From the NCBI GenBank assembly GCA_015662775.1, contig DQTL01000173.1, positions 1 through 57,611 on the forward strand: 57,611 nt of DNA, written 5' to 3'. The notes under the pieces are model-generated. The model had not been told where the DNA came from, did no database searches, and was given only the letters and a program-made list of their open reading frames with translations. This stretch comes from Lutibacter sp. Its GTDB lineage: Bacteria > Bacteroidota > Bacteroidia > Flavobacteriales > Flavobacteriaceae. The translations under genes and the position numbers were made by a program. Below, piece by piece: positions 8,968-57,240 of the stretch (its first letter is position 1; the number at the start of each line of letters is the position of its first letter).

Positions 8968-8970
8968 AAG

Positions 8971-10680: not shown

Positions 10681-10690
10681 AAAATTGTAT

Positions 10691-40147: not shown

Positions 40148-40169
40148 TTGTTTTGTCTAATTAATTAGC

Positions 40170-43100: not shown

Positions 43101-43988
43101 TAAAAGAATTGTTTTAGAACCCGAATCAATAATTTCTTCAATATGTTCTTTTTCTAATATAGTATCTCGATCGAAAATAATTTCATTACGTTCAATAGAT
43201 ACAACTTCACCAGTATCTTCATCAACAAAATCTTCAAACCAAGTTTTAAGAATTCTTGCGGCAGTTTTTCTACCTAAGACTCTTTTTAAACCAGCTTTAG
43301 AAACTTTTATCTCTTCTGCGAGGTCAAATATTTCTAATATATCTTTATCACGTTCAAATCCGATTGCACGGAAAAGTGTTGTGACTGGTAATTTTTTCTT
43401 ACGATCAATATACGCGTACATGACGTGGTTAATGTCTGTTGCAAATTCAATCCATGAACCTTTAAAAGGTATTACTCTTGCAGAGTAAAGTTTAGTTCCA
43501 TTAGCATGGAACGATTGTCCAAAGAATACACCAGGTGAACGGTGTAACTGAGAAACGATGACACGTTCAGCTCCGTTGATTACAAAAGAGCCACTTTCTG
43601 TCATATAAGGTATTGCACCTAAATATACATCTTGAACAACGGTTTCAAAATCTTCGTGTTCAGGATCAGTACAATAAAGTTTTAATCGTGCCTTAAGAGG
43701 CACACTGTAAGTTAAACCTCTTTCAATACATTCTCGTATTGTATAACGTGGAGGATCAACAAAATAATCTAAAAATTCTAATACAAACTGATTACGTGTA
43801 TCGGTAATAGGGAATATTTCCGAAAAGGTTTTATATAAACCTTCGTTATCACGTTCTTCTGCTTTTGTTTGTAGTTGGAAAAAATCCTGAAATGATTTTA
43901 CTTGAATGTCAAGAAAATCAGGATATTCGGTTGTTAATTGTGCAGATGCAAAATTAATTCTTTCAGTTGCTGTAAGAGTTGCTGCCAA
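40170..43988 (-). CDS. rpoB: DNA-directed RNA polymerase subunit beta
   Basis: Rif-region [44 protein letters not shown]; 1272 aa; apparent TTG start. Confidence 0.99.
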
Positions 43989-44033
43989 TGTGAAATAGTT
44001 TTAATTAGAAAAGAACGAATATATACGCAAAAT

Positions 44034-44071
44034 GGTTTAGGTCAAAACGCTTATACGTAATGACCTAAACC
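44034..44071 (-). terminator. rplL-rpoB intergenic attenuator hairpin
   Basis: Perfect 11-bp stem GGTTTAGGTCA / TGACCTAAACC with a 16-nt loop. The minus-strand RNA is followed by AUUUUG. Confidence 0.6.
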
Positions 44072-44095
44072 TTTACTATTTAGGGTAAGAAAAGC

Positions 44096-44470
44096 TTATT
44101 TAAGCTCTACTTCTGCTCCTGCTTCTTCTAAAGATTTTTTCAAGCCTTCTGCTTCATCTTTAGTTACACCTTCTTTGATTGGTGCTGGTGCACTATCAAC
44201 AACTCCTTTAGCTTCTTTTAAGCCAAGACCCGTTAATTCTTTAACCAATTTAACTACAGCTAGTTTTGATTGTCCTGCTGCAGTAAGGATTACGTCAAAC
44301 TCAGTTTGCTCTTCTTCTCCTCCAGCTTCTCCACCAGCGGCTGGTCCTGCTACAACTGCTGCTGCAGCTGGCTCAATACCATATTCTTCTTTTAAGATAC
44401 TTGCCAACTCATTTACGTCTTTTACCGTAAGATTGACTAATTTTTCTGCGAAATCTTTTAAATCTGCCAT
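44096..44470 (-). CDS. rplL: 50S ribosomal protein L7/L12
   Basis: Ala/Gly/Glu hinge followed by [24 protein letters not shown]. Confidence 0.98.
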
Positions 44471-44546
44471 TATTCTTAGTTTTAAAATTTTGTTTATTAG
44501 TTTATTTAGTGTGTGTATTATTAATTAGAGTCAAATAGTATTACAA

Positions 44547-45077
44547 TTATTTTTCCTCTTTTTCAGATAAAGTTTTTAAGATACCTGCTATTTTACCTCC
44601 ACCTGACTGTAATGCTGATATAACATTTTTGGCTGGTGATTGTAATATACCGATAATCTCTCCGATAAGTTCTTCTTTAGATTTGATACTAACTAGTGCA
44701 TCTAGTTGGTCATCTCCTACAAAAACTGCTTCTTCAATAAAAGCTCCTTTTAATAAGGGTTTTTCTTGCTTTGCTTTTTTACGGAATTCTTTTATCACTT
44801 TGGCAGGTGCATTACCTGTTTCAGAAATCATTAAAGAAGTATTTCCTTTTAATGTATCTGACAATTCTCCAAAGTCTTTATCTGATTTCTCCATTGCTTT
44901 TGCAAGCAAGGTGTTCTTTACAACCGAAAGTTTAACATTTTTCTTAAAACATGCTCTTCTTAAATCGGAAGTGTTTGAAGCATCTAAACCTGAAATGTCT
45001 GCTAAATATATGATATTATTATCAGTCAAAACAGCTGTCAAATTTTCAATTACTTGTGATTTTTCTTCTCTTGTCAT
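44547..45077 (-). CDS. rplJ: 50S ribosomal protein L10
   Basis: Position between rplA and rplL; MTREEKSQVIENL N-terminus; 176 aa. Confidence 0.95.
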   Translation of the reverse strand: MTREEKSQVIENLTAVLTDNNIIYLADISGLDASNTSDLRRACFKKNVKLSVVKNTLLAKAMEKSDKDFGELSDTLKGNTSLMISETGNAPAKVIKEFRKKAKQEKPLLKGAFIEEAVFVGDDQLDALVSIKSKEELIGEIIGILQSPAKNVISALQSGGGKIAGILKTLSEKEEK

Positions 45078-45087
45078 TTGAATAAAT

Positions 45088-45780
45088 TTAACTTAGTGAC
45101 TTAATACTAATACCAATACTTGGGCTCATGGTACTGGCTATGAAAACACTTTTCATATAGTCACCTTTTGCCGTAGCTGGTTTTAATTTAATAATCGTTT
45201 GTAATAATTCTTTTGCATTTTCTGCAATTTTTTTAGCGTCAAAGGAAACTTTGCCAATTCCTGCATGAATAATACCAGTTTTATCAACTTTAAAGTCGAT
45301 TTTACCTGATTTTACAGCAGCTACTGCTTTACCAATTTCCATTGTTACTGTACCTGTTTTTGGGTTTGGCATTAATCCTCTAGGCCCTAAAATTCTACCT
45401 AAAGGTCCTAATTTACCCATAACGCTAGGCATTGTAACGATAACGTCAACGTCTGTCCAACCTCCTTTAATCTTAGTGAGGTATTCATCTAATCCAACAA
45501 AGTCAGCACCTGCTTCTTTAGCTTCTGCTTCTTTATCTGGAGTAACTATTGCTAATATTTTAACATCTTTACCTGTACCGTGTGGTAAGGTAACTACACC
45601 CCTTACTAATTGATCAGCTTTTCTTGGATCAACTGCTAATCTTACTGCCAAATCTACTGTGGCATCAAAATTAGTACTTGTTATATCCTTTAAAACTTTA
45701 GCTGCATCATCTAATGAGTATAATTGAGTATTATCAAGTTTAGAATAAGCTACTTTTTGTTTTTTAGTTAATTTTGCCAT
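45088..45780 (-). CDS. rplA: 50S ribosomal protein L1
   Basis: [34 protein letters not shown]; 230 aa. Confidence 0.98.
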
Positions 45781-45804
45781 TGTTAAATAACGTTTAAAAT
45801 TAAA

Positions 45805-46242
45805 TTAAAAAGGAGCTTTTCCTTTTACTTTTACACCCATAGAACGTGCTGTACCTGCCATCATTTTCATAGCTGACTCAACGGTAAATGCATTTAAATC
45901 TACCATCTTGCCTTCAGCAATTGTTCTCAATTGATCCCAAGTAACTGTTGCTACTTTGACTCTATTTGGTTCACCTGAACCTTTCTTTAGTTTTGCTGCT
46001 TCTAATATTTGGACAGCTGCAGGTGGTGTTTTTACAACAAAATCAAATGATTTGTCTTTATACACAGTAATTACCACTGGTAATACTTTCCCTTGCTTGT
46101 CTTGAGTTCTAGCATTAAACTGCTTACAGAACTCCATAATATTAACACCAGCAGCACCTAAAGCTGGACCTACAGGTGGCGAAGGATTTGCGGCTCCTCC
46201 ACGTACTTGTAATTTTACAACTTTACCGACTTCTTTTGCCAT
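45805..46242 (-). CDS. rplK: 50S ribosomal protein L11
   Basis: [34 protein letters not shown]. Confidence 0.98.
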
Positions 46243-46319
46243 TTATATTAATTATAAAAGTTATGATTCTTTCTCTATTTTGGAAGCTAAGAGATTAAAT
46301 CTTACTTGTGTAACACTTA

Positions 46320-46868
46320 TTAAATTTTTTCAACTTGCATATAACTTAGTTCTAATGGTGTTTTTCTTCCGAAAATTTTAACCATTACCTCAAGCTTACG
46401 TTTTTCTTCATGTATTTTTTCGATAGTACCTTCAAATCCATTGAAAGCTCCATCAATAACTTTAACAGATTCTCCTTCAATGAAAGGTATCATTACATTT
46501 TCATTAGCTACAGCTAACTCATCAACCTTCCCTAACATTCTGTTAATTTCAGCTTGTCTTAAAGGAACAGGATCTCCTCCTTTAACTTCACCTAACATAC
46601 CTATAACTCCAGGAATTGCTCTAATTATATGAGGAATTTCTCCACTTAAATTAGCTTCTATCATCACATATCCAGGAAAATACACACGTTCTTTATTATA
46701 TTTTTTTCCATTTCGAATTTGAATTACTTTTTCAGTTGGAACTAAAACAGTTTCGATATAGTCAGAAATATTAAGACGTGTAATTTCATTGATAAGGTAA
46801 TCTTTCACCTTATTCTCTTGACCTCCTACAGCCTTTACTACATACCATTTTTTTACGAAATCAGACAT
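46320..46868 (-). CDS. nusG: transcription termination/antitermination factor NusG
   Basis: KWYVVKAVGGQENKV NGN domain, C-terminal KOW (GESVKVIDGAFNGFEGTIEKI). Confidence 0.97.
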   Translation of the reverse strand: MSDFVKKWYVVKAVGGQENKVKDYLINEITRLNISDYIETVLVPTEKVIQIRNGKKYNKERVYFPGYVMIEANLSGEIPHIIRAIPGVIGMLGEVKGGDPVPLRQAEINRMLGKVDELAVANENVMIPFIEGESVKVIDGAFNGFEGTIEKIHEEKRKLEVMVKIFGRKTPLELSYMQVEKI

Positions 46869-46876
46869 AGGTTGAT

Positions 46877-47065
46877 TTAAAATATTTGGAATAATTGTTT
46901 CAGTAAAGTTTGGAATACTTTATCAACTCCAAATACAGCCAAAGCAAATAATACAGTAAATAAGGCTACAACAGCAGTAGATTTTTGAGCTTCTTCCCAA
47001 GAAATCCATGTCATGTTCTCTTTTAGTTCTCTAAACGATTCTTTAACGTAGGTTAGTAATTGCAT
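46877..47065 (-). CDS. secE: preprotein translocase subunit SecE
   Basis: 62 aa with a single C-terminal TM segment; the KV.WISWEEA-type motif (KENMTWISWEEAQKST); sits directly upstream of nusG. Confidence 0.9.
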   Translation of the reverse strand: MQLLTYVKESFRELKENMTWISWEEAQKSTAVVALFTVLFALAVFGVDKVFQTLLKQLFQIF

Positions 47066-47125
47066 TGGTTTCTATTTTTTTGATTTAAAAATCAGTTTAT
47101 CAATTTTGTACATACAGAGAAACTC

Positions 47126-47163
47126 ACTTCGACTCGTTCCTCGCTCAGCATAAACTTCTCGCC
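47126..47163. repeat. short interspersed repeat, copy 1 (ACTTCGACTC-N7-CGCTCRGCATAAAC...TTCTCGC)
   Basis: 26/30 identical to 48811-48840, and the terminal TTCTCGCC matches 48866-48873. Lies just 3' of tRNA-Trp. Confidence 0.7.
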
Positions 47164-47223
47164 TTGAAATTCTATCATTGTTATCAAATTCCTTTCTTTT
47201 CCCAAATCTTCCTTTTCATATCG

Positions 47224-47296
47224 CACGGGCAGAGAGGCTCGAACTCCCGACACCTAGTTTTGGAGACTAGTGCTCTACCAACTGAGCTATGCCCGT
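47224..47296 (-). tRNA. trnW: tRNA-Trp (anticodon CCA)
   Basis: Cloverleaf read by hand: acceptor ACGGGCA/TGCCCGT, D-arm GCTCAGTTGGTAGAGC, anticodon loop CTCCAAA, T-arm GGGAGTTCGAGCCTCTC. Confidence 0.92.
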
Positions 47297-47340
47297 AAAA
47301 AATACATCTTTTTAAAAAACATATTTTATTTACAACACAA

Positions 47341-47364
47341 GGTATCCTGAAAAAACAGGACACC
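47341..47364 (-). terminator. hairpin between tuf and tRNA-Trp (terminator or processing signal)
   Basis: Minus-strand GGUGUCCUG-UUUUUU-CAGGAUACC, 9 bp with one G-U pair. The following U-tract is weak (UUGUGUUG). Confidence 0.45.
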
Positions 47365-47391
47365 TTTATATTGTTTATACTTGCGTTTAGC

Positions 47392-48576
47392 CTACATCAT
47401 TTCAGTTACCTGACCTGCACCTACTGTTCTACCACCTTCACGGATAGCGAAACGTAAACCTACATTTAAGGCAATTTCTTGGTGTAATTCCACTGAGATA
47501 GTTAAGTTGTCTCCTGGCATTACCATTTCAACACCATCAGGTAACATAATTGTTCCTGTTACGTCAGTGGTTCTTACGTAGAACTGTGGACGGTAGTTGT
47601 TATGAAATGGTGTATGACGACCACCTTCTTCTTTTTTAAGGATATATACCTCTGCTTTAAATTTAGCATGAGGAGTTACAGAACCTGGTTTACAAAGAAC
47701 CATACCTCTACTAACTTGATTTTTATCAATACCTCTTAATAAAAGACCTACATTATCACCAGCTTCACCTCTATCTAATATTTTACGGAACATTTCAACT
47801 CCAGTAACGGTTGATTTTAATTTTTCAGCTCCCATACCGATAATATCAATTGCATCACCTGTTAAAGCAATACCTGCTTCGATACGACCTGTAGCAACAG
47901 TACCACGACCTGTAATCGTAAATACATCTTCAACTGGCATTAAGAAATCTTTATCAATATCTCTTTCAGGTAATTTGATCCATTCATCAACGGCATCCAT
48001 CAATTCCATAATCTTATCTTCCCATTGTGCTTCACCGTTCATCGCACCTAAAGCTGAACCTGCAATTACTGGTGTATTATCACCATCGTAATCGTAGAAA
48101 GAAAGCAATTCTCTTACTTCCATATCAACTAATTCTAATAATTCTTCATCATCAACTAAATCTACTTTGTTTAAGAAAACAACCATACTTGGAATACCAA
48201 CTTGTCTTCCTAATAAGATATGCTCTCTTGTTTGTGGCATAGGACCATCAGTTGCTGCAACCACTAAAATTGCACCATCCATTTGAGCAGCACCAGTTAC
48301 CATATTTTTCACGTAATCCGCGTGACCTGGACAGTCAACGTGTGCATAGTGACGATTTGCAGTTTGGTACTCAACGTGAGCTGTGTTAATTGTAATACCT
48401 CTTTCTTTTTCCTCTGGGGCATTATCAATTTGATCAAAGTCCATTATTTCAGACAGACCTCTTTTTGCCAATACCATTGTTATGGCAGCGGTCAAAGTTG
48501 TTTTTCCGTGATCTACGTGTCCAATAGTACCTATGTTTAAGTGCGGTTTGGACCGATCAAAAGTTTCTTTAGCCAT
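47392..48576 (-). CDS. tuf: elongation factor Tu
   Basis: [24 protein letters not shown] motifs; 394 aa. Confidence 0.99.
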
Positions 48577-48649
48577 AATTGCTTGTTTTACTTAGTTTAT
48601 ATTAGTGTTAATCTTAAAATTCTAATTCTATTCTTCTTCTTCGCTATTG

Positions 48650-48722
48650 AGCCAACGACGGGACTTGAACCCGTGACCCCATCCTTACCATGGATGTGCT
48701 CTACCAACTGAGCTACGTCGGC
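48650..48722 (-). tRNA. trnT: tRNA-Thr (anticodon GGT)
   Basis: Acceptor GCCGACG/CGTTGGC, anticodon stem CATCC/GGATG with loop ATGGTAA, T-loop GGGTTCAAGTCCC. Confidence 0.92.
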
Positions 48723-48792
48723 GAGTTTTAACAAACGAAAACACTTATACGTATAAACCTTTTACATATAAGTCCTTTTATTTGAAAAAATT

Positions 48793-48809
48793 GAGCAAGA
48801 GACCGGGCT
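48793..48809 (-). other. orphan duplicate of the tRNA-Gly 3' end (16/17 nt)
   Basis: gagcAagagaccgggct versus gagcGagagaccgggct at 48928-48944. It lies 118 nt downstream of the intact tRNA in the tRNA orientation. Confidence 0.7.
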
Positions 48810-48810
48810 T

Positions 48811-48873
48811 ACTTCGACTCCTTTTTCGCTCGGCATAAACACTTCGACTACGCTCGGTGTACCACTTCTCGCT
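48811..48873. repeat. short interspersed repeat, copy 2, with internal partial duplication
   Basis: 48811-48840 matches copy 1 at 26/30. 48841-48857 repeats ACTTCGACTA+CGCTCGG without the spacer. The end TTCTCGCT matches the end of copy 1. Confidence 0.7.
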
Positions 48874-48928
48874 TTCATCTCCTTACATAAAAAACATAAT
48901 TTATAAAAAAACTATGTCTTATAATCAG

Positions 48929-49001
48929 AGCGAGAGACCGGGCTCGAACCGGCGACAATCAGCTTGGAAGGCTGAAGCTCTACCAACTGAGCTACTCTCG
49001 C
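48929..49001 (-). tRNA. trnG: tRNA-Gly (anticodon TCC)
   Basis: Acceptor GCGAGAG/CTCTCGC, anticodon stem TCAGC/GCTGA with loop CTTCCAA, T-loop GGTTCGAGCCC. Confidence 0.92.
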
Positions 49002-49040
49002 TTTTAAAAATCACTATTTATAGTAATTTTAAGGTTTTTG

Positions 49041-49122
49041 TGGTGGGAGAAGGATTCGAACCTTCGAAGGCGAAGCCAGCAGATTTACAGTCTGCCCTCG
49101 TTGACCGCTTGAGTATCCCACC
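49041..49122 (-). tRNA. trnY: tRNA-Tyr (anticodon GTA), long variable arm
   Basis: Acceptor GGTGGGA/TCCCACC, anticodon stem GCAGA/TCTGC with loop CTGTAAA, variable arm GGCTTCGCC, T-loop GGTTCGAATCC; 82 nt. Confidence 0.92.
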
Positions 49123-49156
49123 CCTAGTTTTAAAGAACTATTATTTCATTAATTTG

Positions 49157-49230
49157 AGCCGATGGAGGGACTCGAACCCACGACCTGCTGATTACAAATC
49201 AGCTGCTCTAGCCAGCTGAGCTACATCGGC
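49157..49230 (-). tRNA. trnT: tRNA-Thr (anticodon TGT)
   Basis: Acceptor GCCGATG/CATCGGC, anticodon stem GCTGA/TCAGC with loop TTTGTAA, T-loop GGGTTCGAGTCCC. Confidence 0.92.
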
Positions 49231-49232
49231 GT

Positions 49233-49264
49233 AAAAAAAACAAACCGCTTTTTTCAAACGGTCT
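49233..49264 (-). terminator. hpf terminator-like hairpin upstream of the tRNA cluster
   Basis: Minus-strand AGACCG-loop-CGGUUU (6 bp, one G-U pair) followed by G+U8. It abuts a TACATTTG -7 box (49266-49273) that could drive the tRNA operon. Confidence 0.4.
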
Positions 49265-49325
49265 GCAAATGTAAAAAGTTTTATTTTAAGAGCAAAACTT
49301 TTTATTCTATTTTTTTATATTTCTT

Positions 49326-49628
49326 TTAATGCTTTTCTCTTTGCTTTTCTTTTAGTTTAATTAATGTCTTTTTCAAGACTGCAACTGACTGATTTAGTGC
49401 TGTTTCAAAAGAGTTTGCTGTTTTCTTTACTACGGGGTCATATCCAGGTATTCCTAACCTAATTTCTAACTCTTTATTTTCTTTTACACTGGTCTTTTGT
49501 ACTTTTAAATGAACTTGGGCGTCAATTATATTATCATAGAACTTCAAAAGACCATTTATTTTGTTTTCTATGAGATCTACTAGATCTTTATCAACGTTAA
49601 AATTTACTGCTTGAACATTTACTTTCAT
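49326..49628 (-). CDS. hpf: ribosome hibernation factor (short HPF/RaiA family)
   Basis: 100 aa; MKVNVQAVNFNVDKDLVDLIENK...LEIRLGIPG pattern of the sigma-54 modulation protein/S30EA family. Confidence 0.88.
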   Translation of the reverse strand: MKVNVQAVNFNVDKDLVDLIENKINGLLKFYDNIIDAQVHLKVQKTSVKENKELEIRLGIPGYDPVVKKTANSFETALNQSVAVLKKTLIKLKEKQREKH

Positions 49629-49697
49629 ACTTTTTATTTTTAGTTTAGAATTATACAGTAAAGTTACAAATAAACTTAGAAAAAAACAATTGTTTAT

Positions 49698-50582
49698 TTA
49701 TTTTTTATTTCTTGGATGGAAATTTTTATACACTTCTTTTAGATGAGCCAAACTACTTTGTGTATATATTTGCGTGGATGCCAAGCTTGCATGACCCAAC
49801 AATTCCTTAACTACATTTAGATCGGCTCCTTCATCTAACAAATGTGTGGCAAAGGCATGACGTAATACATGTGGACTCTTTTTCTCCTTGGTCGTAATCT
49901 GTTTAAAATACTTAGTGACTATTTTATAAACCAAAGAGTCATATAATGGTTTACCTTTATTAGTTAAGAACAATTCTTGATATTCTGAATTAAAATCATT
50001 TCTTAAAGCCATGTATTTATGTAGAAAATCAATTGTAATTTCTAATAAAGGAATATATCGTTCTTTATTTCTCTTGCCTAACACTTTAATAATTTTGTTT
50101 TCGAAACTAATGTCAGACAGTTTTAATCCTACTAACTCTGCCCTTCGCATTCCTGTTGTGTATAGCAACTCTATTATTAGATGGTCACGTACTTGTTCTA
50201 AACCTTTTGCTTCAAAGAAAAGCTCATCTAATCTTTCTAGTTCTTTTTTAGAAAAAGGGGTTATTGTTTTCTTTTGAGTTTTTAGGGAATGGTGCCCTTG
50301 AAGTGGGTTGGAATCAATATCTCCTACTTTTTCTAAAAACTTATAAAAGGATTTTAAAGCACTAATTTTTCGATTAATACTCCTATTTGATAAACCATCA
50401 TTGACTAAATTTACAATCCATGTGCGTATTTGCACATAAATCACTTCTGATAAAGTATCCGCTGAGTAGGTTTCTTGTAAAAAGGCTCTAAAAAGAAGTA
50501 AATCCTTCTTATAAGCCAAGAGGGTGTGTTTTGAGTATCCTCTCTCAAATTGCAAATACTCAATAAATTTAGAAATGGGCAT
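49698..50582 (-). CDS. tyrosine site-specific recombinase (XerC/XerD-like)
   Basis: N-terminal SAM-like core-binding domain (LQFERGYSKHTLLAYKKDL). Catalytic residues in TGMRRAELVGL, HVLRHAFATHL and LGHASLASTQIYT. Confidence 0.88.
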   Translation of the reverse strand: MPISKFIEYLQFERGYSKHTLLAYKKDLLLFRAFLQETYSADTLSEVIYVQIRTWIVNLVNDGLSNRSINRKISALKSFYKFLEKVGDIDSNPLQGHHSLKTQKKTITPFSKKELERLDELFFEAKGLEQVRDHLIIELLYTTGMRRAELVGLKLSDISFENKIIKVLGKRNKERYIPLLEITIDFLHKYMALRNDFNSEYQELFLTNKGKPLYDSLVYKIVTKYFKQITTKEKKSPHVLRHAFATHLLDEGADLNVVKELLGHASLASTQIYTQSSLAHLKEVYKNFHPRNKK

Positions 50583-50657
50583 AAAAAAACCTTAGGTGTA
50601 CAAATCTACAAAAGTAGTTTTAAAACATCTAAGGTTTAGACTTTATTTTCTAAAGAA

Positions 50658-50855
50658 CTAAGATTGTTCTTCAGCTGTTCTTCTGCGTTGCACGTATGAT
50701 GCTTTTATCATCTGAGCACGTTTGTTTACAGAAGGTTTCGTAAACTGTTTTTTGCCACGAAGCGTACGCATTGTCTTTGTTCGATCAAATTTTCTTTTGA
50801 ATCTTTTTAAAGCTCTGTCTATATTTTCTCCGTCTTTTACAGGAATTATCAACAT
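50658..50855 (-). CDS. rpsU: 30S ribosomal protein S21
   Basis: MLIIPVKDGENIDRALKRFKRKFDRTKTMRTLRGKKQFTKPS; 65 aa. Confidence 0.97.
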   Translation of the reverse strand: MLIIPVKDGENIDRALKRFKRKFDRTKTMRTLRGKKQFTKPSVNKRAQMIKASYVQRRRTAEEQS

Positions 50856-51167: not shown

Positions 51168-51242
51168 GGGCAATTAGCTCAGTTGGTTCAGAGCACCTCG
51201 TTTACACCGAGGGGGTCGGGGGTTCGAATCCCTCATTGCCCA
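51168..51242 (+). tRNA. trnV: tRNA-Val (anticodon TAC), CCA encoded at 51243-51245
   Basis: Acceptor GGGCAAT/ATTGCCC, D-arm GCTCAGTTGGTTCAGAGC, anticodon stem CCTCG/CGAGG with loop TTTACAC, T-loop GGTTCGAATCC. Confidence 0.93.
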
Positions 51243-51250
51243 CCAAACAA

Positions 51251-51591: not shown

Positions 51592-52269
51592 CTACTTTTC
51601 TAAATAATCTATCGCCTTTTCCCTTAGACTTTCATCAATAAGCATGGCATTTATTTGAAAAGCATTTCCTGTTCCTCTTTCAATTTTTACAGCTTGGTTT
51701 GCAGTAAAATACGGGCAGTTTATAGCTCTTTCATAGAGTTTGTCATACAACACTTCTTTCTTTGAAATATAATTATAAACAAAAGGGTTTAAAGACTTTG
51801 CATCATTAATATATTTAATAACAAGTTTGTTGAGTTTAGAATTTGGGATGACTATTAACTCTCCTTTTTTATTAATAATTTCTGTTGAAGTTAGATTAAT
51901 ATTTTTAATTCTACCTGCGACTAAATCTGTAACTATATAATCATTTAGCCTAGGCGTATTGGAAAACTTGATACTTGCTCCTGCAAAAAAATTTGTCCAA
52001 GAACTCCAACCAGTAACCAAAACGATAAAACCAATGGCTAAGGTCAATACATGATTTGCTACTAAAAGTGAACTCAATAGAAATACAAAAAACACTACCC
52101 AAACCACTATTTGCAAACGTTGCCATAACAAAGCAACTGTACTTTCTTTTCTCAATAAAACAGGAATAATATACTTAGAAATTACATGAAAAACAAAATG
52201 CAACAAAGCTCCTATTACTAAATAAAGAAGTATTTGTTCTATGGGTAATGTGCTTAAATATTTTTCCAT
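51592..52269 (-). CDS. small MscS-like mechanosensitive channel family protein
   Basis: Three N-terminal TM segments followed by the MscS beta-domain pattern: NDYIVTDLVAGRIKNINLTSTEIINKKGELIVIPNSKL. Its start lies 3 nt after the stop of the upstream giant gene. Confidence 0.7.
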   Translation of the reverse strand: MEKYLSTLPIEQILLYLVIGALLHFVFHVISKYIIPVLLRKESTVALLWQRLQIVVWVVFFVFLLSSLLVANHVLTLAIGFIVLVTGWSSWTNFFAGASIKFSNTPRLNDYIVTDLVAGRIKNINLTSTEIINKKGELIVIPNSKLNKLVIKYINDAKSLNPFVYNYISKKEVLYDKLYERAINCPYFTANQAVKIERGTGNAFQINAMLIDESLREKAIDYLEK

Positions 52270-52272
52270 TTT

Positions 52273-55200
52273 TTAAATAATTGAAAGTGATTTTAAATGC
52301 TTTTCAATAAAAAATCTTGCCGAATTATTGAGTATATATCTTGCATCTGCTTGTTTGGTTACTAAAGTCCCTTTTTCCATTTCTTCTAATGCTTTAAAGA
52401 AATGATTCGACTCATCATTAAATAGTATTTTTACTTGTGCTTCTGATAGATTATTATGAAGAACAAATGCATAAAGCAACACTTTCCATTCTGCATTAAA
52501 TATTTTTGGCATTTTAGTAGAAACTGGCTCTGAAATACTAAGCTCATTTTCTTTATTTAAAGAAATAATTGGCAACCATTTTTGCAAAGAAACACCTATT
52601 GAACCCTCTGAAAGTATCTGTAATTTTGAAATGATTTTATTTATTTTTTTCGAATTTCTAACTAATTCATTTTTATAATAAATACTTGCTCCTCCTACTT
52701 TGTGTCTGTTTAAAATGATACTATTAATTTCTAATTTACTATAAGGTCGCATGATAATAGTGGTAATTAACTGCTTTTCTAATTGTGTTGTTTGCTTGAT
52801 AACCCCATAACTATACCGGTTTGCATTTAATATAAAGGTGTGTTTGTCACCCATTTTTTCTATCAAACTCGTTAAATGATTTAATGTTTTTACTCCATTC
52901 TCTGATCTTGTCCACCATTTTTCTAGATCATTAAACACAAATACAGCTGGTTTTATTTGTTTTAAGATACTTAAACTAGTTCCTTTTTTATTAAATAATT
53001 TTTGAAATACTTTATGTAAATCGGCATTTGTATAGGTTTGATTTGCTGGCGGATTAATATCATACTTTACTGATTTTTCTGGAATTCTTGCAATGGCATC
53101 ACTTAAAAATGTTTTTCCAGATAATGCATCACCAATAATCATTATTGCTCCATTAACTCCTGATTCTAGTCTTTTTAATGCGTCTTTCCCTTTTAAATAT
53201 TCTGGTCTTTCTTCGATACTTGTATTGACTAAATGACTTCCTGTAAATAGCTTTTTATAATAGAAAGGCAGGATTTTACTTACCTCTTTATCAATTCGTT
53301 GTTCTTGTAAGAAAGAATAAGTTTGCTCAATTTTATTGGCATATCCCTTATAAAAATCTTTTGACAATTGATTGTCTAGTTCTTGTTGTTGTTGTTGTTG
53401 ATTAACAAAAGTTTTTATCTGTTTTTTTAATATCCCAAAATCAGAAGTTTTCTTTTGTTTCCAATCTGTAAATTTTGAAGTTAATACAGTTTTTTGTGCC
53501 GATTTATCTAATAAATCTGTGGATTCTAGTATTACTCTAATAGTAAGAAGATCTTGTGTTTGATGCAGATTTGTTTTTAAATCTAACAAGAATATATCCT
53601 TTAATTTTCTGAGATTAGAAAGGTTTATGGCTATATTCTCTTGAACTTCATTTTTTAATTGTTTAGTCCCTTTTGATTCGATAGAAGTTTCATCAATTAA
53701 ATAAATTAACTTATTGGCTGTATTATAGATACCTTCAGAATTTTGATTGTATAATTCTTCCAACTCATTAATACTTTCTTGTAAAGTTCCCAAATAATTA
53801 GCCTGAATTATATGGTTTTGAACCGTGGCAAGGTTTATTTGAATATTCTCTTCCGAATCATTTTGTTTTTCGGACAACACATTAAAAGAGGTCGGATTCA
53901 TCAAACTAACAATCCTATTTGTCTTTTGCGTCAGTTGTGTGATACTTTTTTCTTCATCTTCAAATAGATTAGATAAATTAACACTAGAGATGCCTTCTGC
54001 AATTTCAATTAGGGCATCAATTGTTTGTTTGTCTAGGTTCTTTTCTTCTCCTTTTCGTAACTCAGCATCTATTTTAGAAAGAATTTTAATCTTTTCTAAT
54101 TGTGGGTTAATCATGCTTTCTGTCAAATGATTTTTAATGTTTTCATTTATATTAGAAAGTAATAATCCAGTATCCGTTAATAACCAATCCATTTCTGTTT
54201 GATTATGACATAACAATTGATTTTTATACCAATTGGTTCCAAACCAAGCCACATTATTTTTGATCGCTAAACTATCTTTCTTTGACGCTTTATTTTTAGT
54301 ATTCTGAATTTTCTTGAAAAAGTTTGGTTTCTCAATATTGTTTAGCAGTTCTATCGTTTGGTCTCTTTCAAATTGCTGAATACTATCAACAACTGTACTT
54401 TTTAAACGCTGTGCTGTTTGTAATTGTGTTTTAATCAGGCTTTGGCTATTTTCTACAAAAGTAGCAAGTGCTTGTTTATTATTTGCACTCGTATTCTCAA
54501 CAAATAATTGTGTTTCTTTCACTAATCCTTCTGTTAATGAACTCAACATTACAAAATTTTGAGCTCCAAATTGATACAGCGATTTCTGAAGATTAGGTGT
54601 TATTTTTTCAATGAAATAAAAATTTAGAATAGCTTTCCATTTAACTTTTCTATTCGTTTTAAAAGAAATATTTTTGGGTTCATTTTCAATAAAATCATAT
54701 CTAACTTTTTGAAGTTTATTGAGTTCTTTATACAAACTTTCTGAAGCCGTTGAAAGTTTATTTTCTTTAAAACTTTCAGATGTTGCAATGAGTTCTTTAC
54801 TAAAACTTTGAAGGTAAGGTATAATTTCTTTTACCTCATTTTTTTCTACTAAAGCACTCGATAAATCATCAAATTTTTGGGAAATTTCACTAATAAATTG
54901 CGAATAAGATGAAGCTATGATACGTAATGATTGTTCAGAAAAACTATTTAAGGTATCGTTTAAAACGGCATCTAGTTCTCCTACTTTACTATTGATAGTA
55001 TTATTTTCAGATAAAGGAAGTGGTTTTAACACAGATGATTCTGATAGTTCAATATTTGATTCTTGATTAACATCAAATTTCAATTCATTAAAGTTATTTG
55101 ATGCTTTGACCATTAATGTAGAACCAATGGTGTTAAATAACTGCGTTGTATTGACAATAAAATCAGCTTGTTTTTCAGTTTTAATATTCGGAATTCCCAG

Positions 55201-57240
55201 TAAAGTTAAATCGGTATTTGCAGATTGTATGGCAATAATTTTATAAAACGGTTTTTGCTCTACTCCATTATTGATGACTACAATTTCTACATTGACTCGT
55301 AAATCTTCGACAAACTTTGTAATTTTCGATTTAATTATTGAACTATCAGTATTATTATGATTTACGTAAAGCACTCGTATTTTTGCTCTATTCCAATCGG
55401 TAGATTGTGTAATAAAGCGAACAATGTTGAGCATCATTTCAGCATTTTTACTGTCTGTTTCTCTCCACCATAAATCTACACTTGATTTTTTTCCAAACTT
55501 GGCTTTTTGATCAAAATCTAGATAGAGTAAATTATAATCTAAATGCAACAGAGTTTGGGTCATCGAAGTATAATCACCTGATTTATTAAGTTTCCTAGGC
55601 CAACCCATCATTACCGTATTGGGTTCAACACCTGAAAAACCAAAAGTAGAAGCTATATTTTCAATACCTTTAAAGATATTATCTACTTTTACTTGTCTTG
55701 AAAACATGCCTAAATCTTTAAAAGAATTCTCTTTTAACACTTGCTCTGACTTTTTAAAAGGCTTGGTGTTATTTTTATCTAAGATTAATTTGAAATTAGT
55801 TACAATACCTGTTCGACCCGCTATCGTATCACTCAGTTGTAATAAGTATTTACGATGTGCACTTTCACCACTAAAAAGAATAATATTTGGGTTCCAATTG
55901 GCACTGGTATCATTTTCTTTTGTGTCTAATTTTTTCAACCCTTTAGCGACAATATTTTCCCAAACACTTTGCCATACATCACCTGTTTCTAAGGCAAGTT
56001 GTTTTCTTTGTAATAATAGATAAATACCAATAATTATAACGATGGCACCAAACATGGCAAGCATATCTAGTTTAAACATGATACCAAAACTTGCTAAAAA
56101 GCCTAATAGACCAAACCAACGGTTTACTTTAAAACTGGGCTGAAAATCGGGATTTGCCCAACTCTCTAAGAAAAAAGAAAGATTGATAAAACCATAAGCC
56201 GCTAAATAAAACATGGAAACTACACGGGCAATAACATCTAATTCACCAATTAATATACCAGCTTGTGCAATAACAAAAACTAGAATTAAGGCATTGACGG
56301 GTTCATTATTTTGTCCTTTTCCTTTTCCGAATAATTTAGGTGTTACCTTGTCGATAGACATGGCTTGTAAGATTCTTGGTCCGCCTAAAATACCACCTAA
56401 TGCCGAGGATAAGGTTGCTCCCCAAATACCAGCGACAACAGCAGGTGACCATAGGGCTATTTTCATCAAAATATTATAGTCACTACGTAATGTTTCAGAA
56501 TCAATATAATACGAAAGGAAAAATGCCAAGCCTATATAAACAACAAAACCGACTGCTATTGCGGCAATAGTACCAATAGGAAGTGACTTTTTCGGATCTT
56601 TTAAATCACCACTCATTGCTACACCTGCGGTAAATCCAGTAACAGCAGGAAAGAATATGGCAAACACCATTTCGAGTGGAACCGACTTTTCACTTGCAAA
56701 AAGAGCAACTGATTGCGGTGCAAATTCATTAGTTCCAAATCCTATAGAAACTAAAGATATCACGATAGCCGCTAAAATAAAAAATTGTGTTTTTAAAGCA
56801 AATGAAGTACTAATTAGGGCAATCACAGTCAATAAAAGAAGAGCAATAGAACCTGCAATTCGTAATCCATTAATACTCGTATCAAAACCAAAATAGCCAT
56901 TAAAACTCTCGGCAAAACCAATTAAATATAATGCAATAGAAAATGCCGTACCAATATAAAGCGTAACGCCAATTGCTCCACCGATAGGAATTCCCATACT
57001 TCTGGAAAGTATATAATAAATTCCTCCTGCTCCAACTTTTTTATCGGTAGCTATTGAAGACAAACTCAATCCTGTAGAAATAGAGATTACATGTGCTATA
57101 ACCACAATAATAATTGTACCTATTAAGCCTGCGTTACCAACTACCCAACCCATTCTCATATACATGATTACACCAAGTATAGTTAAAATAGAAGGTGTGA
57201 AAACTCCTGAAAATGCTCCGAACTTGTTTTTATCTGACAT
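52273..57240 (-). CDS. 1655-aa fusion protein: SLC12/CCC-type cation-chloride cotransporter (TM core + SLC12 C-terminal domain) + long helical linker + C-terminal P-loop NTPase/winged-helix-like module
   Basis: aa 1-~412: APC/CCC TM core (FGAFSGVFTPSILTILGVIMYMRMGWVVGNAG). aa ~430-715: CCC C-terminal domain hallmarks NWNPNIILFSGE and GVEPNTVMMGWPRK. aa ~715-1330: N/Q/K/E/S-rich helical region including Q6. aa 1370-1377: Walker A GDALSGKT. aa ~1433-1440: Walker B-like VFVFNDLE. The tail is helical and wHTH-like. Confidence 0.75.
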   Translation of the reverse strand: MSDKNKFGAFSGVFTPSILTILGVIMYMRMGWVVGNAGLIGTIIIVVIAHVISISTGLSLSSIATDKKVGAGGIYYILSRSMGIPIGGAIGVTLYIGTAFSIALYLIGFAESFNGYFGFDTSINGLRIAGSIALLLLTVIALISTSFALKTQFFILAAIVISLVSIGFGTNEFAPQSVALFASEKSVPLEMVFAIFFPAVTGFTAGVAMSGDLKDPKKSLPIGTIAAIAVGFVVYIGLAFFLSYYIDSETLRSDYNILMKIALWSPAVVAGIWGATLSSALGGILGGPRILQAMSIDKVTPKLFGKGKGQNNEPVNALILVFVIAQAGILIGELDVIARVVSMFYLAAYGFINLSFFLESWANPDFQPSFKVNRWFGLLGFLASFGIMFKLDMLAMFGAIVIIIGIYLLLQRKQLALETGDVWQSVWENIVAKGLKKLDTKENDTSANWNPNIILFSGESAHRKYLLQLSDTIAGRTGIVTNFKLILDKNNTKPFKKSEQVLKENSFKDLGMFSRQVKVDNIFKGIENIASTFGFSGVEPNTVMMGWPRKLNKSGDYTSMTQTLLHLDYNLLYLDFDQKAKFGKKSSVDLWWRETDSKNAEMMLNIVRFITQSTDWNRAKIRVLYVNHNNTDSSIIKSKITKFVEDLRVNVEIVVINNGVEQKPFYKIIAIQSANTDLTLLGIPNIKTEKQADFIVNTTQLFNTIGSTLMVKASNNFNELKFDVNQESNIELSESSVLKPLPLSENNTINSKVGELDAVLNDTLNSFSEQSLRIIASSYSQFISEISQKFDDLSSALVEKNEVKEIIPYLQSFSKELIATSESFKENKLSTASESLYKELNKLQKVRYDFIENEPKNISFKTNRKVKWKAILNFYFIEKITPNLQKSLYQFGAQNFVMLSSLTEGLVKETQLFVENTSANNKQALATFVENSQSLIKTQLQTAQRLKSTVVDSIQQFERDQTIELLNNIEKPNFFKKIQNTKNKASKKDSLAIKNNVAWFGTNWYKNQLLCHNQTEMDWLLTDTGLLLSNINENIKNHLTESMINPQLEKIKILSKIDAELRKGEEKNLDKQTIDALIEIAEGISSVNLSNLFEDEEKSITQLTQKTNRIVSLMNPTSFNVLSEKQNDSEENIQINLATVQNHIIQANYLGTLQESINELEELYNQNSEGIYNTANKLIYLIDETSIESKGTKQLKNEVQENIAINLSNLRKLKDIFLLDLKTNLHQTQDLLTIRVILESTDLLDKSAQKTVLTSKFTDWKQKKTSDFGILKKQIKTFVNQQQQQQELDNQLSKDFYKGYANKIEQTYSFLQEQRIDKEVSKILPFYYKKLFTGSHLVNTSIEERPEYLKGKDALKRLESGVNGAIMIIGDALSGKTFLSDAIARIPEKSVKYDINPPANQTYTNADLHKVFQKLFNKKGTSLSILKQIKPAVFVFNDLEKWWTRSENGVKTLNHLTSLIEKMGDKHTFILNANRYSYGVIKQTTQLEKQLITTIIMRPYSKLEINSIILNRHKVGGASIYYKNELVRNSKKINKIISKLQILSEGSIGVSLQKWLPIISLNKENELSISEPVSTKMPKIFNAEWKVLLYAFVLHNNLSEAQVKILFNDESNHFFKALEEMEKGTLVTKQADARYILNNSARFFIEKHLKSLSII

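What the first reader, a model, noticed from the sequence alone, without database searches (positions are those of the whole stretch)
52273..57240. Giant fusion: CCC/SLC12 cotransporter + ~600-aa helical linker + P-loop NTPase module in one 1655-aa ORF
The first ~715 aa look like a complete prokaryotic cation-chloride cotransporter. They carry the 12-TM APC core plus the cytoplasmic SLC12 C-terminal domain, whose hallmark strings NW(R/N)P(Q/N)..L and EPNTV.MGWP are both present. As far as I know, prokaryotic CCC homologues normally end there. Here the frame stays open for another ~940 aa. About 600 aa of low-complexity helical sequence (N/Q/K/E/S/L-rich, with heptad-like stretches and a Q6 run) comes first. 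A ~300-aa module follows with Walker A GDALSGKT (aa 1370-1377, nt 53110-53133), a hydrophobic-strand Walker B VFVFNDLE (D at nt 52927-52929) and a helical, winged-helix-like tail. That layout resembles the 'archaeal ATPase'/ORC-like or STAND-type P-loop NTPases. Eukaryotic CCCs are regulated through their cytoplasmic termini by kinases. A covalently attached NTPase switch on a bacterial CCC would be a different and, to my knowledge, undescribed regulatory architecture for ion or osmotic homeostasis.
Basis: partly seen in the sequence, partly recalled or inferred. Interest (0 to 1): 0.75.

Follow-up and report, generated by a model that had tools for sequence, protein, structure and literature searches.

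The report
Salt cotransporter fused to ATPase switch
This is a real 1655-residue bacterial protein that joins a complete animal-type Na-K-Cl salt cotransporter to a large ATP-binding switch protein, is always encoded next to a small pressure-release (MscS-type) channel gene, and probably represents an undescribed way for bacteria to control salt content and turgor.

Summary
ORF 52273-57240(-) is one 1655-aa gene, with every motif at the stated coordinates. It is not an assembly artefact: 59 independent genomes, including isolates, carry the same uninterrupted architecture. The N-terminal 715 aa form a complete cation-chloride cotransporter, and all NKCC1 Na+, K+ and Cl- side-chain ligands are invariant. 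The "linker" is not low-complexity filler. After a ~30-aa flexible tether it folds confidently into bundles of 45-63-residue helices with no structural relative in the PDB. The last ~340 aa form an ORC/Cdc6-/STAND-like AAA+ ATPase (core, lid, winged helix) with invariant Walker A/B residues.

Two findings change the interpretation. First, helical domain plus ATPase is an autonomous ~940-aa soluble protein that also occurs unfused, once at the same syntenic locus as a fusion. Second, fused or not, its gene is followed at once by a small MscS-family gene (window 51592-52269), in all but one informative locus.

So this is a two-gene Bacteroidota cassette (relatives in 410 species genomes) that usually captured a CCC, not a CCC-specific regulator. 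The cassette most likely acts in ion/turgor homeostasis. No publication describing it was found, and databases call it "amino acid permease".

The parts
52273..57240 (-). Whole gene: 1655-aa CCC + helical domain + AAA+ ATPase fusion, stop codon included
   Evidence: ORF. Full-length homologues at 100% coverage. Single open frame in 59 independent loci.
55996..57240 (-). aa 1-415: 12-TM LeuT/APC-fold transport core of an NKCC-type cation-chloride cotransporter
   Evidence: PF00324 over aa 13-411 at 1e-47. NKCC1 structures are the best hits for aa 1-360. Ion-site residues S278/S279/A275, Y105, T201/P198 and Y349 align with hNKCC1 S613/S614/A610, Y383, T499/P496 and Y686 and are invariant in the family. 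Hydrophobic segments occur only within aa 7-409.
55096..55923 (-). aa 440-715: cytoplasmic SLC12 C-terminal domain
   Evidence: KCC structures align to aa ~699 and isolated KCC C-terminal domains (6vw9/6vwa) to aa 448-656. PF03522 is recorded in many homologues and passes the cut-off in P0091. The region is highly conserved.
55003..55095 (-). aa 716-746: poorly conserved flexible tether between the transporter and the helical domain
   Evidence: The first ~20 model residues have pLDDT < 50 and no helix appears before model residue 32. The standalone protein P0136 begins aligning exactly after this point.
53341..55002 (-). aa 747-1300: long-helix bundle domain (eight helices of 42-63 residues plus two small beta-hairpins), with no relative of known structure
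   Evidence: AF2 pLDDT 86.5 and pTM 0.79. Foldseek against the PDB gives nothing below E 0.2. Length is conserved at 564-616 aa while identity falls to 12%; W1004 is invariant and Y779, G892, R959, Q1008 and H1012 nearly so.
52741..53283 (-). aa 1320-1500: AAA+ (ORC/Cdc6-/STAND-like) nucleotide-binding core, including the upstream PFYYKKLF motif
   Evidence: AF2 pLDDT 91.8 with a five-stranded alpha/beta core. Foldseek top hits are Cdc6/Orc1, RuvB, TnsC, CED-4 and Apaf-1 at E 1e-8 to 1e-5. AAA_16 is hit by 29/31 members.
53110..53133 (-). Walker A GDALSGKT (aa 1370-1377)
   Evidence: G1370, G1375 and K1376 are invariant in 36 and in 31 sequences; position 1377 is T or S.
52921..52944 (-). Walker B strand VFVFNDLE (aa 1433-1440), followed by an invariant WW
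   Evidence: D1438 in 28/31, E1440 in 31/31, W1442 in 31/31 and W1443 in 30/31.
52561..52740 (-). aa 1501-1560: helical lid domain with invariant R1512-H1513 and the motif S-x-G-N-I-G-x-A-L-x-x-W
   Evidence: Model helices 207-263. Column counts. The position where clamp-loader/initiator AAA+ proteins carry the sensor-2 Arg (own knowledge) is Gly in 30/31.
52276..52518 (-). aa 1575-1655: winged-helix-like C-terminal domain
   Evidence: Helix-strand-helix-hairpin-helix topology in the model. The family profile hits the wHTH protein 2d1h at E 0.014. The best fold matches are AAA+ proteins with a C-terminal winged helix. Net charge is about +2.
51592..52269 (-). Partner gene: 225-aa MscS-family membrane protein, starting 3 nt after the stop codon of the fusion gene
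   Evidence: PF00924 at 6e-12. The family profile hits MscS/YnaI structures at E 1e-10 and E. coli MscS residues 102-235. Junction sequence TAA-AAA-ATG. The gene is present directly downstream in all but one informative locus.

Best explanation
Shown:
- The gene encodes a complete NKCC-type Na+/K+/Cl- cotransporter.
- A flexible tether of about 30 residues joins it to what is elsewhere an independent soluble protein of about 940 aa.
- That protein has a ~550-aa domain of very long helices followed by an ORC/Cdc6-/STAND-like AAA+ ATPase (core, lid, winged helix) with intact Walker A and B motifs.
- Fused or free, its gene is followed at once by a small MscS-family membrane protein gene. The conserved unit is therefore a two-gene cassette, and the CCC is an add-on that most lineages carry.

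Inferred:
- The cassette serves ion and turgor homeostasis.
- The ATPase acts as a nucleotide-dependent switch or scaffold, changing conformation or oligomeric state on ATP binding as ORC/Cdc6 and STAND proteins do.
- It works at the membrane with the MscS-like protein.
- Tethering it to the salt importer puts uptake (CCC) and release (MscS-like valve) under one ATP-dependent controller.
- The signal sensed, the sign of the regulation and the physical contacts are all unknown.
For: - Architecture and authenticity.
- Functional transporter: every side-chain ligand of the hNKCC1 Na+, K+ and Cl2 sites (PMC9713717) aligns with an invariant residue. The transporter is the most conserved part of the protein.
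- ATPase fold and motifs.
- Structured helical domain.
- Autonomy of the ~940-aa module: 28 of the 143 listed representatives I classified (620 clusters matched in all) are 850-1050 aa, start with Met and lack CCC and TM segments. P0136 aligns end-to-end with aa 745-1687 of fusion P0112 at the same syntenic locus.
- Pairing with the MscS-like gene: after the HMM re-check it is present downstream of all 59 complete fusions and of every standalone locus except one contig (L007 = L069). Spacing is 3 nt or the genes overlap. No other neighbour was conserved in the eight loci with called genes.
- Housekeeping setting beside rpsU, tuf and rpoBC and no PADLOC hit fit a physiological role.
- Fusion of two proteins in some genomes, separate in others, is a classic indicator of functional linkage (established 'Rosetta stone' reasoning).
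Against: - There is no experimental evidence of any kind, and no tool here could test physical interaction.
- R1512, in the lid, is the only Arg conserved at 90% or more in the whole module. The usual sensor-2 position is Gly. The catalytic mechanism is therefore unclear and the domain could bind ATP without turning it over.
- In two lineages (L002, L030) the partner lacks most of the MscS beta-domain, so it may not always be a channel.
- One standalone locus has no partner.
- The helical domain has no known relative, so its role is pure conjecture.
- STAND-like ATPases paired with membrane proteins are also typical of defence systems.
Confidence: 0.5

Rival explanations
1. One reading: the NTPase is a dedicated, covalently attached regulatory switch of the CCC alone. 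It would be the bacterial counterpart of kinase control of eukaryotic CCC termini, and the downstream gene would be incidental.
For: The fusion is the majority form: 59 complete fusions against 13 standalone loci and 50 against 28 among listed representatives. The module sits directly after the regulatory SLC12 C-terminal domain.
Against: The same module occurs without a CCC and with no CCC on either strand within 5-8 kb. One such case is at the locus where a relative has the fusion. In the NJ tree, standalone forms sit at four or more separate positions. The link is a ~30-residue disordered tether, not a rigid interface. The MscS-like gene is the more constant partner.
Confidence: 0.15
2. The ATPase with its long helices is a mechanical, assembly or membrane-remodelling factor rather than a regulator. 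Examples would be a chaperone or scaffold for oligomeric membrane proteins, or a tension-responsive helical lattice. The CCC would serve mainly as a membrane anchor.
For: Many AAA+ proteins are remodelling machines (established knowledge). The helical domain consists of very long paired helices with small beta-hairpins. Its only, non-significant, resemblances are ClyA-family MakB and Hbl-B. The standalone form is soluble and needs some way of reaching the membrane.
Against: The fold matches are to switch or loader-type AAA+ proteins (ORC/Cdc6, STAND, TnsC), not to unfoldase rings. No conserved arginine finger was found. A mere anchor would not need every ion-site residue to stay invariant.
Confidence: 0.15
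3. An anti-phage or abortive-infection system. A STAND-like NTPase senses infection and triggers membrane effectors (MscS-like pore, CCC) to collapse ion gradients.
For: Sub-threshold hits to nSTAND3, nSTAND1, NACHT and BrxC/D. Fold matches include CED-4, Apaf-1 and a plant NLR. Pairing a STAND ATPase with a membrane protein is a common defence layout (own knowledge).
Against: No PADLOC model is hit by the fusion or the partner, and P0136 gives only a weak LeoBC hit at E 0.012. The cassette lies among housekeeping genes in the window and at a syntenic chromosomal position in related genomes. It appears once per locus in a distribution that looks vertical. The transporter is the most strongly conserved part.
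Confidence: 0.07
4. A membrane-tethered DNA-binding or transcriptional regulator. The ORC/Cdc6-like AAA+ plus winged helix would bind DNA and couple transporter status to gene expression.
For: The best structural matches are the DNA-binding initiators Cdc6/Orc1. The winged-helix tail weakly matches transcription-regulator and MCM wHTH families.
Against: The winged-helix tail has a net charge of about +2, ranging from -4 to +5. STAND and PF01637-type ATPases carry the same winged helix without binding DNA (own knowledge). No regulated target genes are conserved nearby in the loci with called genes.
Confidence: 0.05
5. An assembly or annotation artefact that joins two or three separate genes.
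For: Four of 88 loci show the gene split into two frames: L023, L044, L061 and L074.
Against: 59 independent loci have one uninterrupted frame, including isolate and complete genomes. The junction residues K712, A713, S714 and F717 are nearly invariant. The split cases are MAG contigs consistent with indel errors or pseudogenes.
Confidence: 0.01

Closest known systems
Eukaryotic Na-K-2Cl cotransporter NKCC1 (SLC12A2) and the SLC12/CCC family (TC 2.A.30)
   Same: The 12-TM LeuT-fold core plus the SLC12 C-terminal domain. NKCC1 is the best-scoring solved structure for the transport core. The Na+ (S613/S614), K+ (Y383, T499) and Cl2 (Y686) ligands are all conserved.
   Different: There is no long N-terminal regulatory tail carrying SPAK/OSR1 phosphorylation sites; the protein starts 5 residues before TM1. 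It has 940 extra C-terminal residues carrying an AAA+ ATPase. Ion stoichiometry has not been tested.
Ordinary prokaryotic CCCs, for example Methanosarcina acetivorans CCC (C-terminal domain structure by Warmuth et al. 2009, cited in PMC4301019)
   Same: Transport core plus a C-terminal domain of the same family.
   Different: To my knowledge those proteins end after the C-terminal domain at about 700-760 aa. Here the frame continues for ~940 aa, and the gene is coupled to an MscS-like gene.
ORC/Cdc6 initiators, PF01637 'archaeal ATPase' and STAND NTPases (AAA_16, nSTAND, NACHT/NB-ARC)
   Same: AAA+ core, helical lid and winged helix in the same order. Top Foldseek hits at E 1e-8. Walker A and B conserved. 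Sub-threshold AAA_16, AAA_22, nSTAND3 and ATPase_2 hits.
   Different: No Pfam or NCBIfam model reaches its cut-off. Walker B reads D-[IL]-E-x-W-W. The usual sensor-2 Arg position is Gly. There are no repeat-type sensor domains (TPR, WD40, LRR). Instead a ~550-aa long-helix domain lies N-terminal to the ATPase.
MscS family of mechanosensitive channels (for the partner gene)
   Same: TM region, pore-helix-like segment, beta-domain and part of the alpha/beta domain align with MscS and YnaI structures.
   Different: The partner is short (189-257 aa) and divergent (18-45% identity within the family). The beta-domain is deleted in some lineages. It is always encoded behind the ATPase gene, a linkage not known for MscS.
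Nucleotide-binding cytoplasmic regulators of ion transporters (RCK/KTN domains of Trk/Ktr/Kef, CBS domains of OpuA and ClC). This is a functional analogy only.
   Same: The idea of a cytoplasmic nucleotide-binding module attached to, or encoded with, an ion transporter so as to gate it.
   Different: The fold is entirely different (AAA+ rather than Rossmann or CBS) and the size far larger. No evidence of gating exists yet.

Membership tests
SLC12 / cation-chloride cotransporter (CCC) | APC/LeuT-fold 12-TM core recognised by family profiles | tested here: met
   PF00324 at 1e-47. TIGR00930 at 5.8e-113, below its full-length equivalog cut-off as expected for a distant homologue. KCC/NKCC structures at E 1e-75. 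Hydrophobic segments span aa 7-409.
SLC12 / cation-chloride cotransporter (CCC) | Ion-coordinating residues of the Na+, K+ and Cl- sites | tested here: met
   S278/S279/A275, Y105, P198/T201 and Y349 align with hNKCC1 S613/S614/A610, Y383, P496/T499 and Y686. All are invariant in 36 family members.
SLC12 / cation-chloride cotransporter (CCC) | Cytoplasmic SLC12 C-terminal domain | tested here: met
   KCC alignments reach aa ~699 and isolated KCC C-terminal domains hit aa 448-656 at E 2e-5. PF03522 is present in homologues. The window protein itself gave no PF03522 hit at E <= 1.
SLC12 / cation-chloride cotransporter (CCC) | Electroneutral cation-coupled Cl- transport | not testable with these tools
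   Needs flux assays.
AAA+ ATPases of the ORC/Cdc6 / STAND type | Walker A GxxxxGK[ST] and a Walker B acidic residue after a hydrophobic strand | tested here: met
   G1370, G1375 and K1376 in 31/31, D1438 in 28/31 and E1440 in 31/31.
AAA+ ATPases of the ORC/Cdc6 / STAND type | alpha/beta core followed by a helical lid and a winged-helix domain | tested here: met
   AF2 model with pLDDT 91.8. Foldseek hits Cdc6, Orc1/2, 2qen, CED-4, Apaf-1 and 6mfv at E 1e-8 to 1e-5 and probability 1.0.
AAA+ ATPases of the ORC/Cdc6 / STAND type | Passes a curated family profile (AAA_16, ATPase_2, NACHT, nSTAND, Cdc6) | tested here: not met
   All hits fall below the gathering scores. Examples: AAA_16 28.2 against 32.6 bits in P0112 (the best bit score recorded); nSTAND3 24.7 against 27.2. 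NCBIfam gives none.
AAA+ ATPases of the ORC/Cdc6 / STAND type | Arginine finger and sensor-2 arginine (classical AAA+), or sensor-1 Arg plus MHD His (STAND) | tested here: inconclusive
   R1512, in the first lid helix, is the only Arg conserved at 90% or more. The canonical sensor-2 position is Gly in 30/31. N1472 and N1474 are candidate sensor-1 residues. No residue-level structural superposition was possible.
KAP family P-loop NTPases | Transmembrane helices inserted within the P-loop domain | tested here: not met
   No hydrophobic segment occurs beyond aa 409, and there is no KAP Pfam hit.
Known anti-phage defence systems (PADLOC-DB) | Match to a defence-protein profile | tested here: not met
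   No hit for the fusion or the partner. P0136 gives only LeoBC at E 0.012.
MscS family (partner gene 51592-52269) | MscS beta-domain preceded by a pore-lining TM helix | tested here: met
   PF00924 at 6e-12, above its cut-off. The profile aligns with MscS, YnaI and MSL1 structures, including the TM region.
MscS family (partner gene 51592-52269) | Heptameric tension-gated channel activity | not testable with these tools
   Needs patch-clamp recording or down-shock survival assays.

The most novel reading that the evidence does not exclude
The cassette is a self-contained bacterial cell-volume regulator. An ATP-driven ORC/STAND-like switch with a novel long-helix sensor domain reciprocally controls an NKCC-type salt importer and an MscS-type release valve. 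That would be a prokaryotic solution, built on an AAA+ switch, to the task eukaryotes solve with kinase control of NKCC and KCC. The ATPase and the MscS-like protein would form a new kind of nucleotide-gated channel complex.
Probability: 0.25. Interest if true: 0.8.

Novelty: new variant of a known kind. Interest (0 to 1): 0.62.

Why it matters
To my knowledge bacterial CCCs are almost unstudied functionally, and no regulator of one is known. Here an NKCC-like transporter with all animal ion-site residues is hard-wired to an ATPase switch and genetically coupled to an MscS-type valve. This holds in hundreds of Bacteroidota species, some of them cultivable (Crocinitomix, Phaeodactylibacter).

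Three things become directly testable:
- how bacteria might coordinate salt uptake with emergency release;
- what an ORC/Cdc6-like AAA+ domain does at a membrane;
- what the ~550-aa helical domain, which has no structural relative, senses.

There is also a practical point. These proteins are currently annotated as "amino acid permease" or "hypothetical protein", which hides the family.

Tried and rejected
- The word-index homology search with the C-terminal 936 aa alone returned nothing, not even the protein itself. That was an artefact of low-complexity words saturating the candidate list. The exhaustive HMMER search found 620 clusters.
- Sequence profiles against PDB sequences gave only weak P-loop, ClpB, NSF and Cdc6 hits at E 0.003-0.06. 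Fold comparison was needed instead.
- Foldseek of the helical domain against the PDB found nothing significant; the best hit was MakB at E 0.2. I do not claim kinship with ClyA.
- PADLOC gave no defence assignment.
- I checked whether proteins of 1000-1450 aa carry other N-terminal domains. They are all truncated CCC fusions.
- I checked whether standalone genes sit next to a separate CCC. None is found on either strand.
- I checked whether the upstream ORF in L006 is a split CCC. It is unrelated.
- Six literature searches on CCC with AAA, bacteria, Bacteroidetes or Flavobacteria, and on MscS with AAA+ or STAND, found no description of the architecture.
- The sigma-70 promoter and terminator scan was uninformative, with counts no higher than in shuffles. 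The tool does not cover organisms with other promoter types, and to my knowledge Bacteroidota are among them.
- Not used: the third indexed protein search and the viral fold library, judged unlikely to change the verdict.
Full report
**1. Observation**

The window carries a single ATG-to-TAA open reading frame at 52273..57240 on the minus strand, 1655 aa long.
- NWNPNIILF at aa 448-456;
- EPNTVMMGWP at aa 539-548;
- the Q6 run at aa 1281-1286;
- GDALSGKT at aa 1370-1377 (nt 53110-53133);
- VFVFNDLE at aa 1433-1440.

All strongly hydrophobic 19-mers fall within aa 7-409. GC content is low (26-38%) with no abrupt change across the gene or the window around it.

**2. Not an artefact**

A search with the full protein returned more than 120 clusters of 1640-1690 aa that align over 100% of the query, at identities from 78% down to 37%. 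They come from Flavobacteriales, Saprospiraceae, Lewinellaceae, Aureispira, Ichthyobacteriaceae and others.

The same protein (1663 aa) is encoded on 7.9-8.1 Mb contigs of Phaeodactylibacter xiamenensis. There it is named "amino acid permease" or "hypothetical protein".

A scan of one genome per GTDB species found relatives of the NTPase module in 410 genomes. I analysed the best 80 loci from that scan together with eight loci fetched earlier, 88 in all.
- 59 have the CCC, helical and NTPase parts in one uninterrupted frame, with a median open frame of 1677 codons. These include Crocinitomix catalasitica ATCC 23190 and C. algicola.
- Only four loci (L023, L044, L061, L074) are split into two frames. 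All are MAG contigs and are most simply explained as indel errors or pseudogenes.
- The end of the CCC part (K712, A713, S714, F717) is nearly invariant.

**3. The transporter**

The family assignment rests on three results:
- Pfam AA_permease over aa 13-411 at 1e-47.
- NCBIfam TIGR00930 at 5.8e-113.
- Solved KCC and NKCC structures aligning from aa 6 to about 699 at E 1e-75. That search also hit isolated KCC C-terminal domains over aa 448-656.

For the transmembrane core alone, NKCC1 is the best match.

I read the alignment to human NKCC1 (7d10 numbering) against the published ion sites (PMC9713717):

| hNKCC1 site | hNKCC1 residues | Window residues |
|---|---|---|
| Na+ | S613, S614, A610 | S278, S279, A275 |
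| K+ | Y383, T499, P496 | Y105, T201, P198 |
| Cl2 | Y686 | Y349 |

All of these are invariant in a 36-member family alignment. The transporter and its C-terminal domain are the most conserved part of the protein. Mean column conservation is 0.6-0.9, against 0.3-0.45 for the middle and 0.4-0.56 for the NTPase.

I conclude it is a working CCC, probably Na+-coupled like NKCC. The stoichiometry is untested.

**4. The "linker"**

An AlphaFold2 model of aa 716-1300, built from 26 family sequences, is confident (mean pLDDT 86.5, pTM 0.79).
- The first ~30 residues are disordered.
- After that come eight helices of 42-63 residues and two small beta-hairpins.
- Length is held at 564-616 residues while identity drops to 12%.
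- W1004 is invariant, and Y779, G892, R959, Q1008 and H1012 are nearly so.
- Foldseek against the PDB gives nothing better than E 0.2 (MakB, a ClyA-family toxin).

So it is a folded domain without a recognisable relative, not a low-complexity spacer.

**5. The NTPase**

A model of aa 1296-1655, built from 31 sequences, has pLDDT 91.8 and pTM 0.89. It shows a five-stranded alpha/beta core, a helical lid and a winged-helix-like tail.

The top Foldseek hits are Cdc6 and Orc1/2 from yeast, fly, human and archaea, at E 1e-8 and probability 1.0. They are followed by RuvB, TnsC, the PF01637-type ATPase 2qen, CED-4, Apaf-1 and a bacterial STAND protein.

Sequence profiles agree but stay below the curated cut-offs. 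AAA_16 is hit by 29/31 members, AAA_22 by 19, AAA and nSTAND3 by 11 each, and ATPase_2 by 6.

Column counts give the following picture:
- G1370, G1375, K1376, E1440, W1442 and R1512 are invariant.
- D1438 is present in 28/31 sequences.
- The motif H-x-F-[IL]-L-N-x-N follows on strand 4.
- The position of the sensor-2 arginine in clamp-loader/initiator AAA+ proteins (my knowledge of those families) is Gly in 30/31.
- No other Arg reaches 90% conservation.

I infer that the domain binds ATP and behaves as a switch or loader type rather than an unfoldase. Its exact clade is unresolved.

**6. The module is autonomous**

The exhaustive HMMER search with aa 720-1655 found 620 clusters at 50% identity (441 at E <= 1e-10).

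I classified 143 of the 150 listed representatives:
- 50 are full fusions.
- 13 are truncated fusions.
- 28 are proteins of 850-1050 aa that start with Met and have no CCC.
- 52 are other fragments.

The standalone-length proteins checked for hydrophobic segments have none. No other N-terminal domain was found.

Standalone P0136 (941 aa) aligns from its residue 3 to its end with aa 745-1687 of fusion P0112 at 41% identity. The two genes occupy the same syntenic slot: SiaC, OmpH, DUF4924, lipid A acyltransferase, DinB, then the gene in question, then MscS-like, Pyr_redox, Fer4, GT2.

No CCC lies on either strand within the 5-8 kb flanks of any standalone locus.

In a neighbour-joining tree of NTPase modules, standalone forms appear at four or more separate positions. 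One is nested inside the Crocinitomix fusion clade. The tree has no support values, so this is only indicative. It suggests the CCC part has been gained or lost repeatedly.

**7. The constant partner**

In the window a 225-aa gene (51592..52269, minus strand) starts 3 nt after the stop codon of the fusion gene, with the junction TAA-AAA-ATG. It carries the MscS beta-domain (PF00924, 6e-12).

A profile of eight partners aligns with MscS, YnaI and MSL1 structures, including the TM region and E. coli MscS residues 102-235 (E 1e-10).

By phmmer the partner was found downstream of 56 of the 59 complete fusions and 9 of the 13 standalone loci. A family HMM then recovered it in L002, L030, L064, L051, L052 and L061. 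Among loci with room downstream, that leaves only one contig without it (L007 and L069 are the same contig).

No other neighbour was conserved in the eight loci with called genes. In the window the cassette ends before a convergent tRNA-Val and rpsU. It lies in a core region with a tyrosine recombinase, a tRNA cluster, tuf and rpoB/rpoC.

**8. Interpretation**

What is shown is a conserved two-gene cassette, restricted to Bacteroidota apart from a few MAGs with other labels: a ~940-aa helical/AAA+ protein plus a small MscS-family protein. In most lineages the first gene has acquired a complete NKCC-type transporter at its N-terminus through a flexible tether.

What is inferred is the function. 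One component imports salt and the other resembles an osmotic release valve. A fusion that is split elsewhere is a standard signal of functional linkage. The most economical reading is therefore ion/turgor homeostasis. In that reading the ATPase is a nucleotide-dependent switch or scaffold acting on the membrane partners. I put this at about 0.5.

The other rivals stand as follows:
- **Defence system.** It remains possible because of the STAND-like fold. Against it are the absence of PADLOC hits, the housekeeping and syntenic context, and the strong conservation of the transporter.
- **DNA-binding role for the winged helix.** The near-neutral charge of that domain does not support it.
- **Remodelling or assembly role.** This cannot be excluded.

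**9. Novelty**

Every component belongs to a known superfamily, so this is not a categorically new kind of system. What appears undescribed is the domain architecture, the obligate pairing of ATPase with MscS-like protein, and the helical domain without structural relatives. Six full-text searches found nothing, and databases label the proteins "amino acid permease" or "hypothetical".

It is half met: the family is common but not characterised.

Noticed in passing
window 51592-52269 (-): A small MscS-family gene starts 3 nt after the giant ORF. It is conserved in that position in all but one informative related locus, making it the most constant partner of the ATPase module.
   Followed up: yes
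L008:5380-8205, L006:1469-4240, L037, L041, L043, L047, L051, L052, L063, L080, L083: Standalone proteins of about 920-1000 aa (helical domain plus AAA+, no transporter and no TM segment), most followed by the MscS-like gene. L008 is syntenic with the fusion locus L005.
   Followed up: yes
L002:11015-11584 and L030:8041-8682: In these Lewinellaceae/Saprospirales loci the partner protein matches the family HMM at both ends but lacks HMM positions ~100-160, most of the MscS beta-domain. It may not be a conventional channel there.
   Followed up: partly
L061:6695-8815; also L023, L044, L074: In L061 the NTPase and the MscS-like protein lie in one 707-codon frame while the CCC is in another frame. 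Three other MAG loci split the giant gene in two. These are probably indel errors or pseudogenes, but a natural triple fusion in L061 was not excluded.
   Followed up: partly
L007 = L069 (contig CAZNYR010000031.1), gene 8001-10952: This is the only informative locus without an MscS-like gene. The standalone 983-aa gene overlaps the end of priA and is followed by a convergent aspartyl-tRNA synthetase gene.
   Followed up: no
L022, L024 (records titled Pyrinomonadaceae) and P0067 (labelled Acidobacteriota): A few fusion genes sit in MAGs labelled Acidobacteriota, although they are 36-52% identical to the window protein. This is either mis-binning or horizontal transfer.
   Followed up: no
L020:1915-2844 and L001:1017-2261: Additional, larger MscS-family genes (a 310-codon frame and a 414-aa gene) lie just upstream of the fusion gene in two loci.
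   Followed up: no
L082:212-5713: An unusually long fusion (1834 codons). The CCC part spans about 800 residues instead of ~715, which suggests an insertion in the transporter or its C-terminal domain.
   Followed up: no
window 35852-50855: The cassette's neighbourhood is core housekeeping: rpoC (35852-40147), rpoB (40170-43988), tuf (47392-48576), five tRNA genes (47223-49230), a XerC/D-type tyrosine recombinase (49698-50582), rpsU (50658-50855) and a convergent tRNA-Val (51168-51245).
   Followed up: partly
L002:2067-3689: A CHAT / gasdermin-protease-type gene, a defence-like element, lies 2.3 kb upstream of the fusion gene in one Lewinellaceae genome. It is not conserved in the other loci with called genes.
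   Followed up: no
(method note): The word-index homology search with the N/Q/K/E-rich C-terminal 936 aa returned no hit at all, not even the identical database protein. Low-complexity words saturated the 8000-candidate list. Negative results from that tool on such sequences are unreliable.
   Followed up: yes
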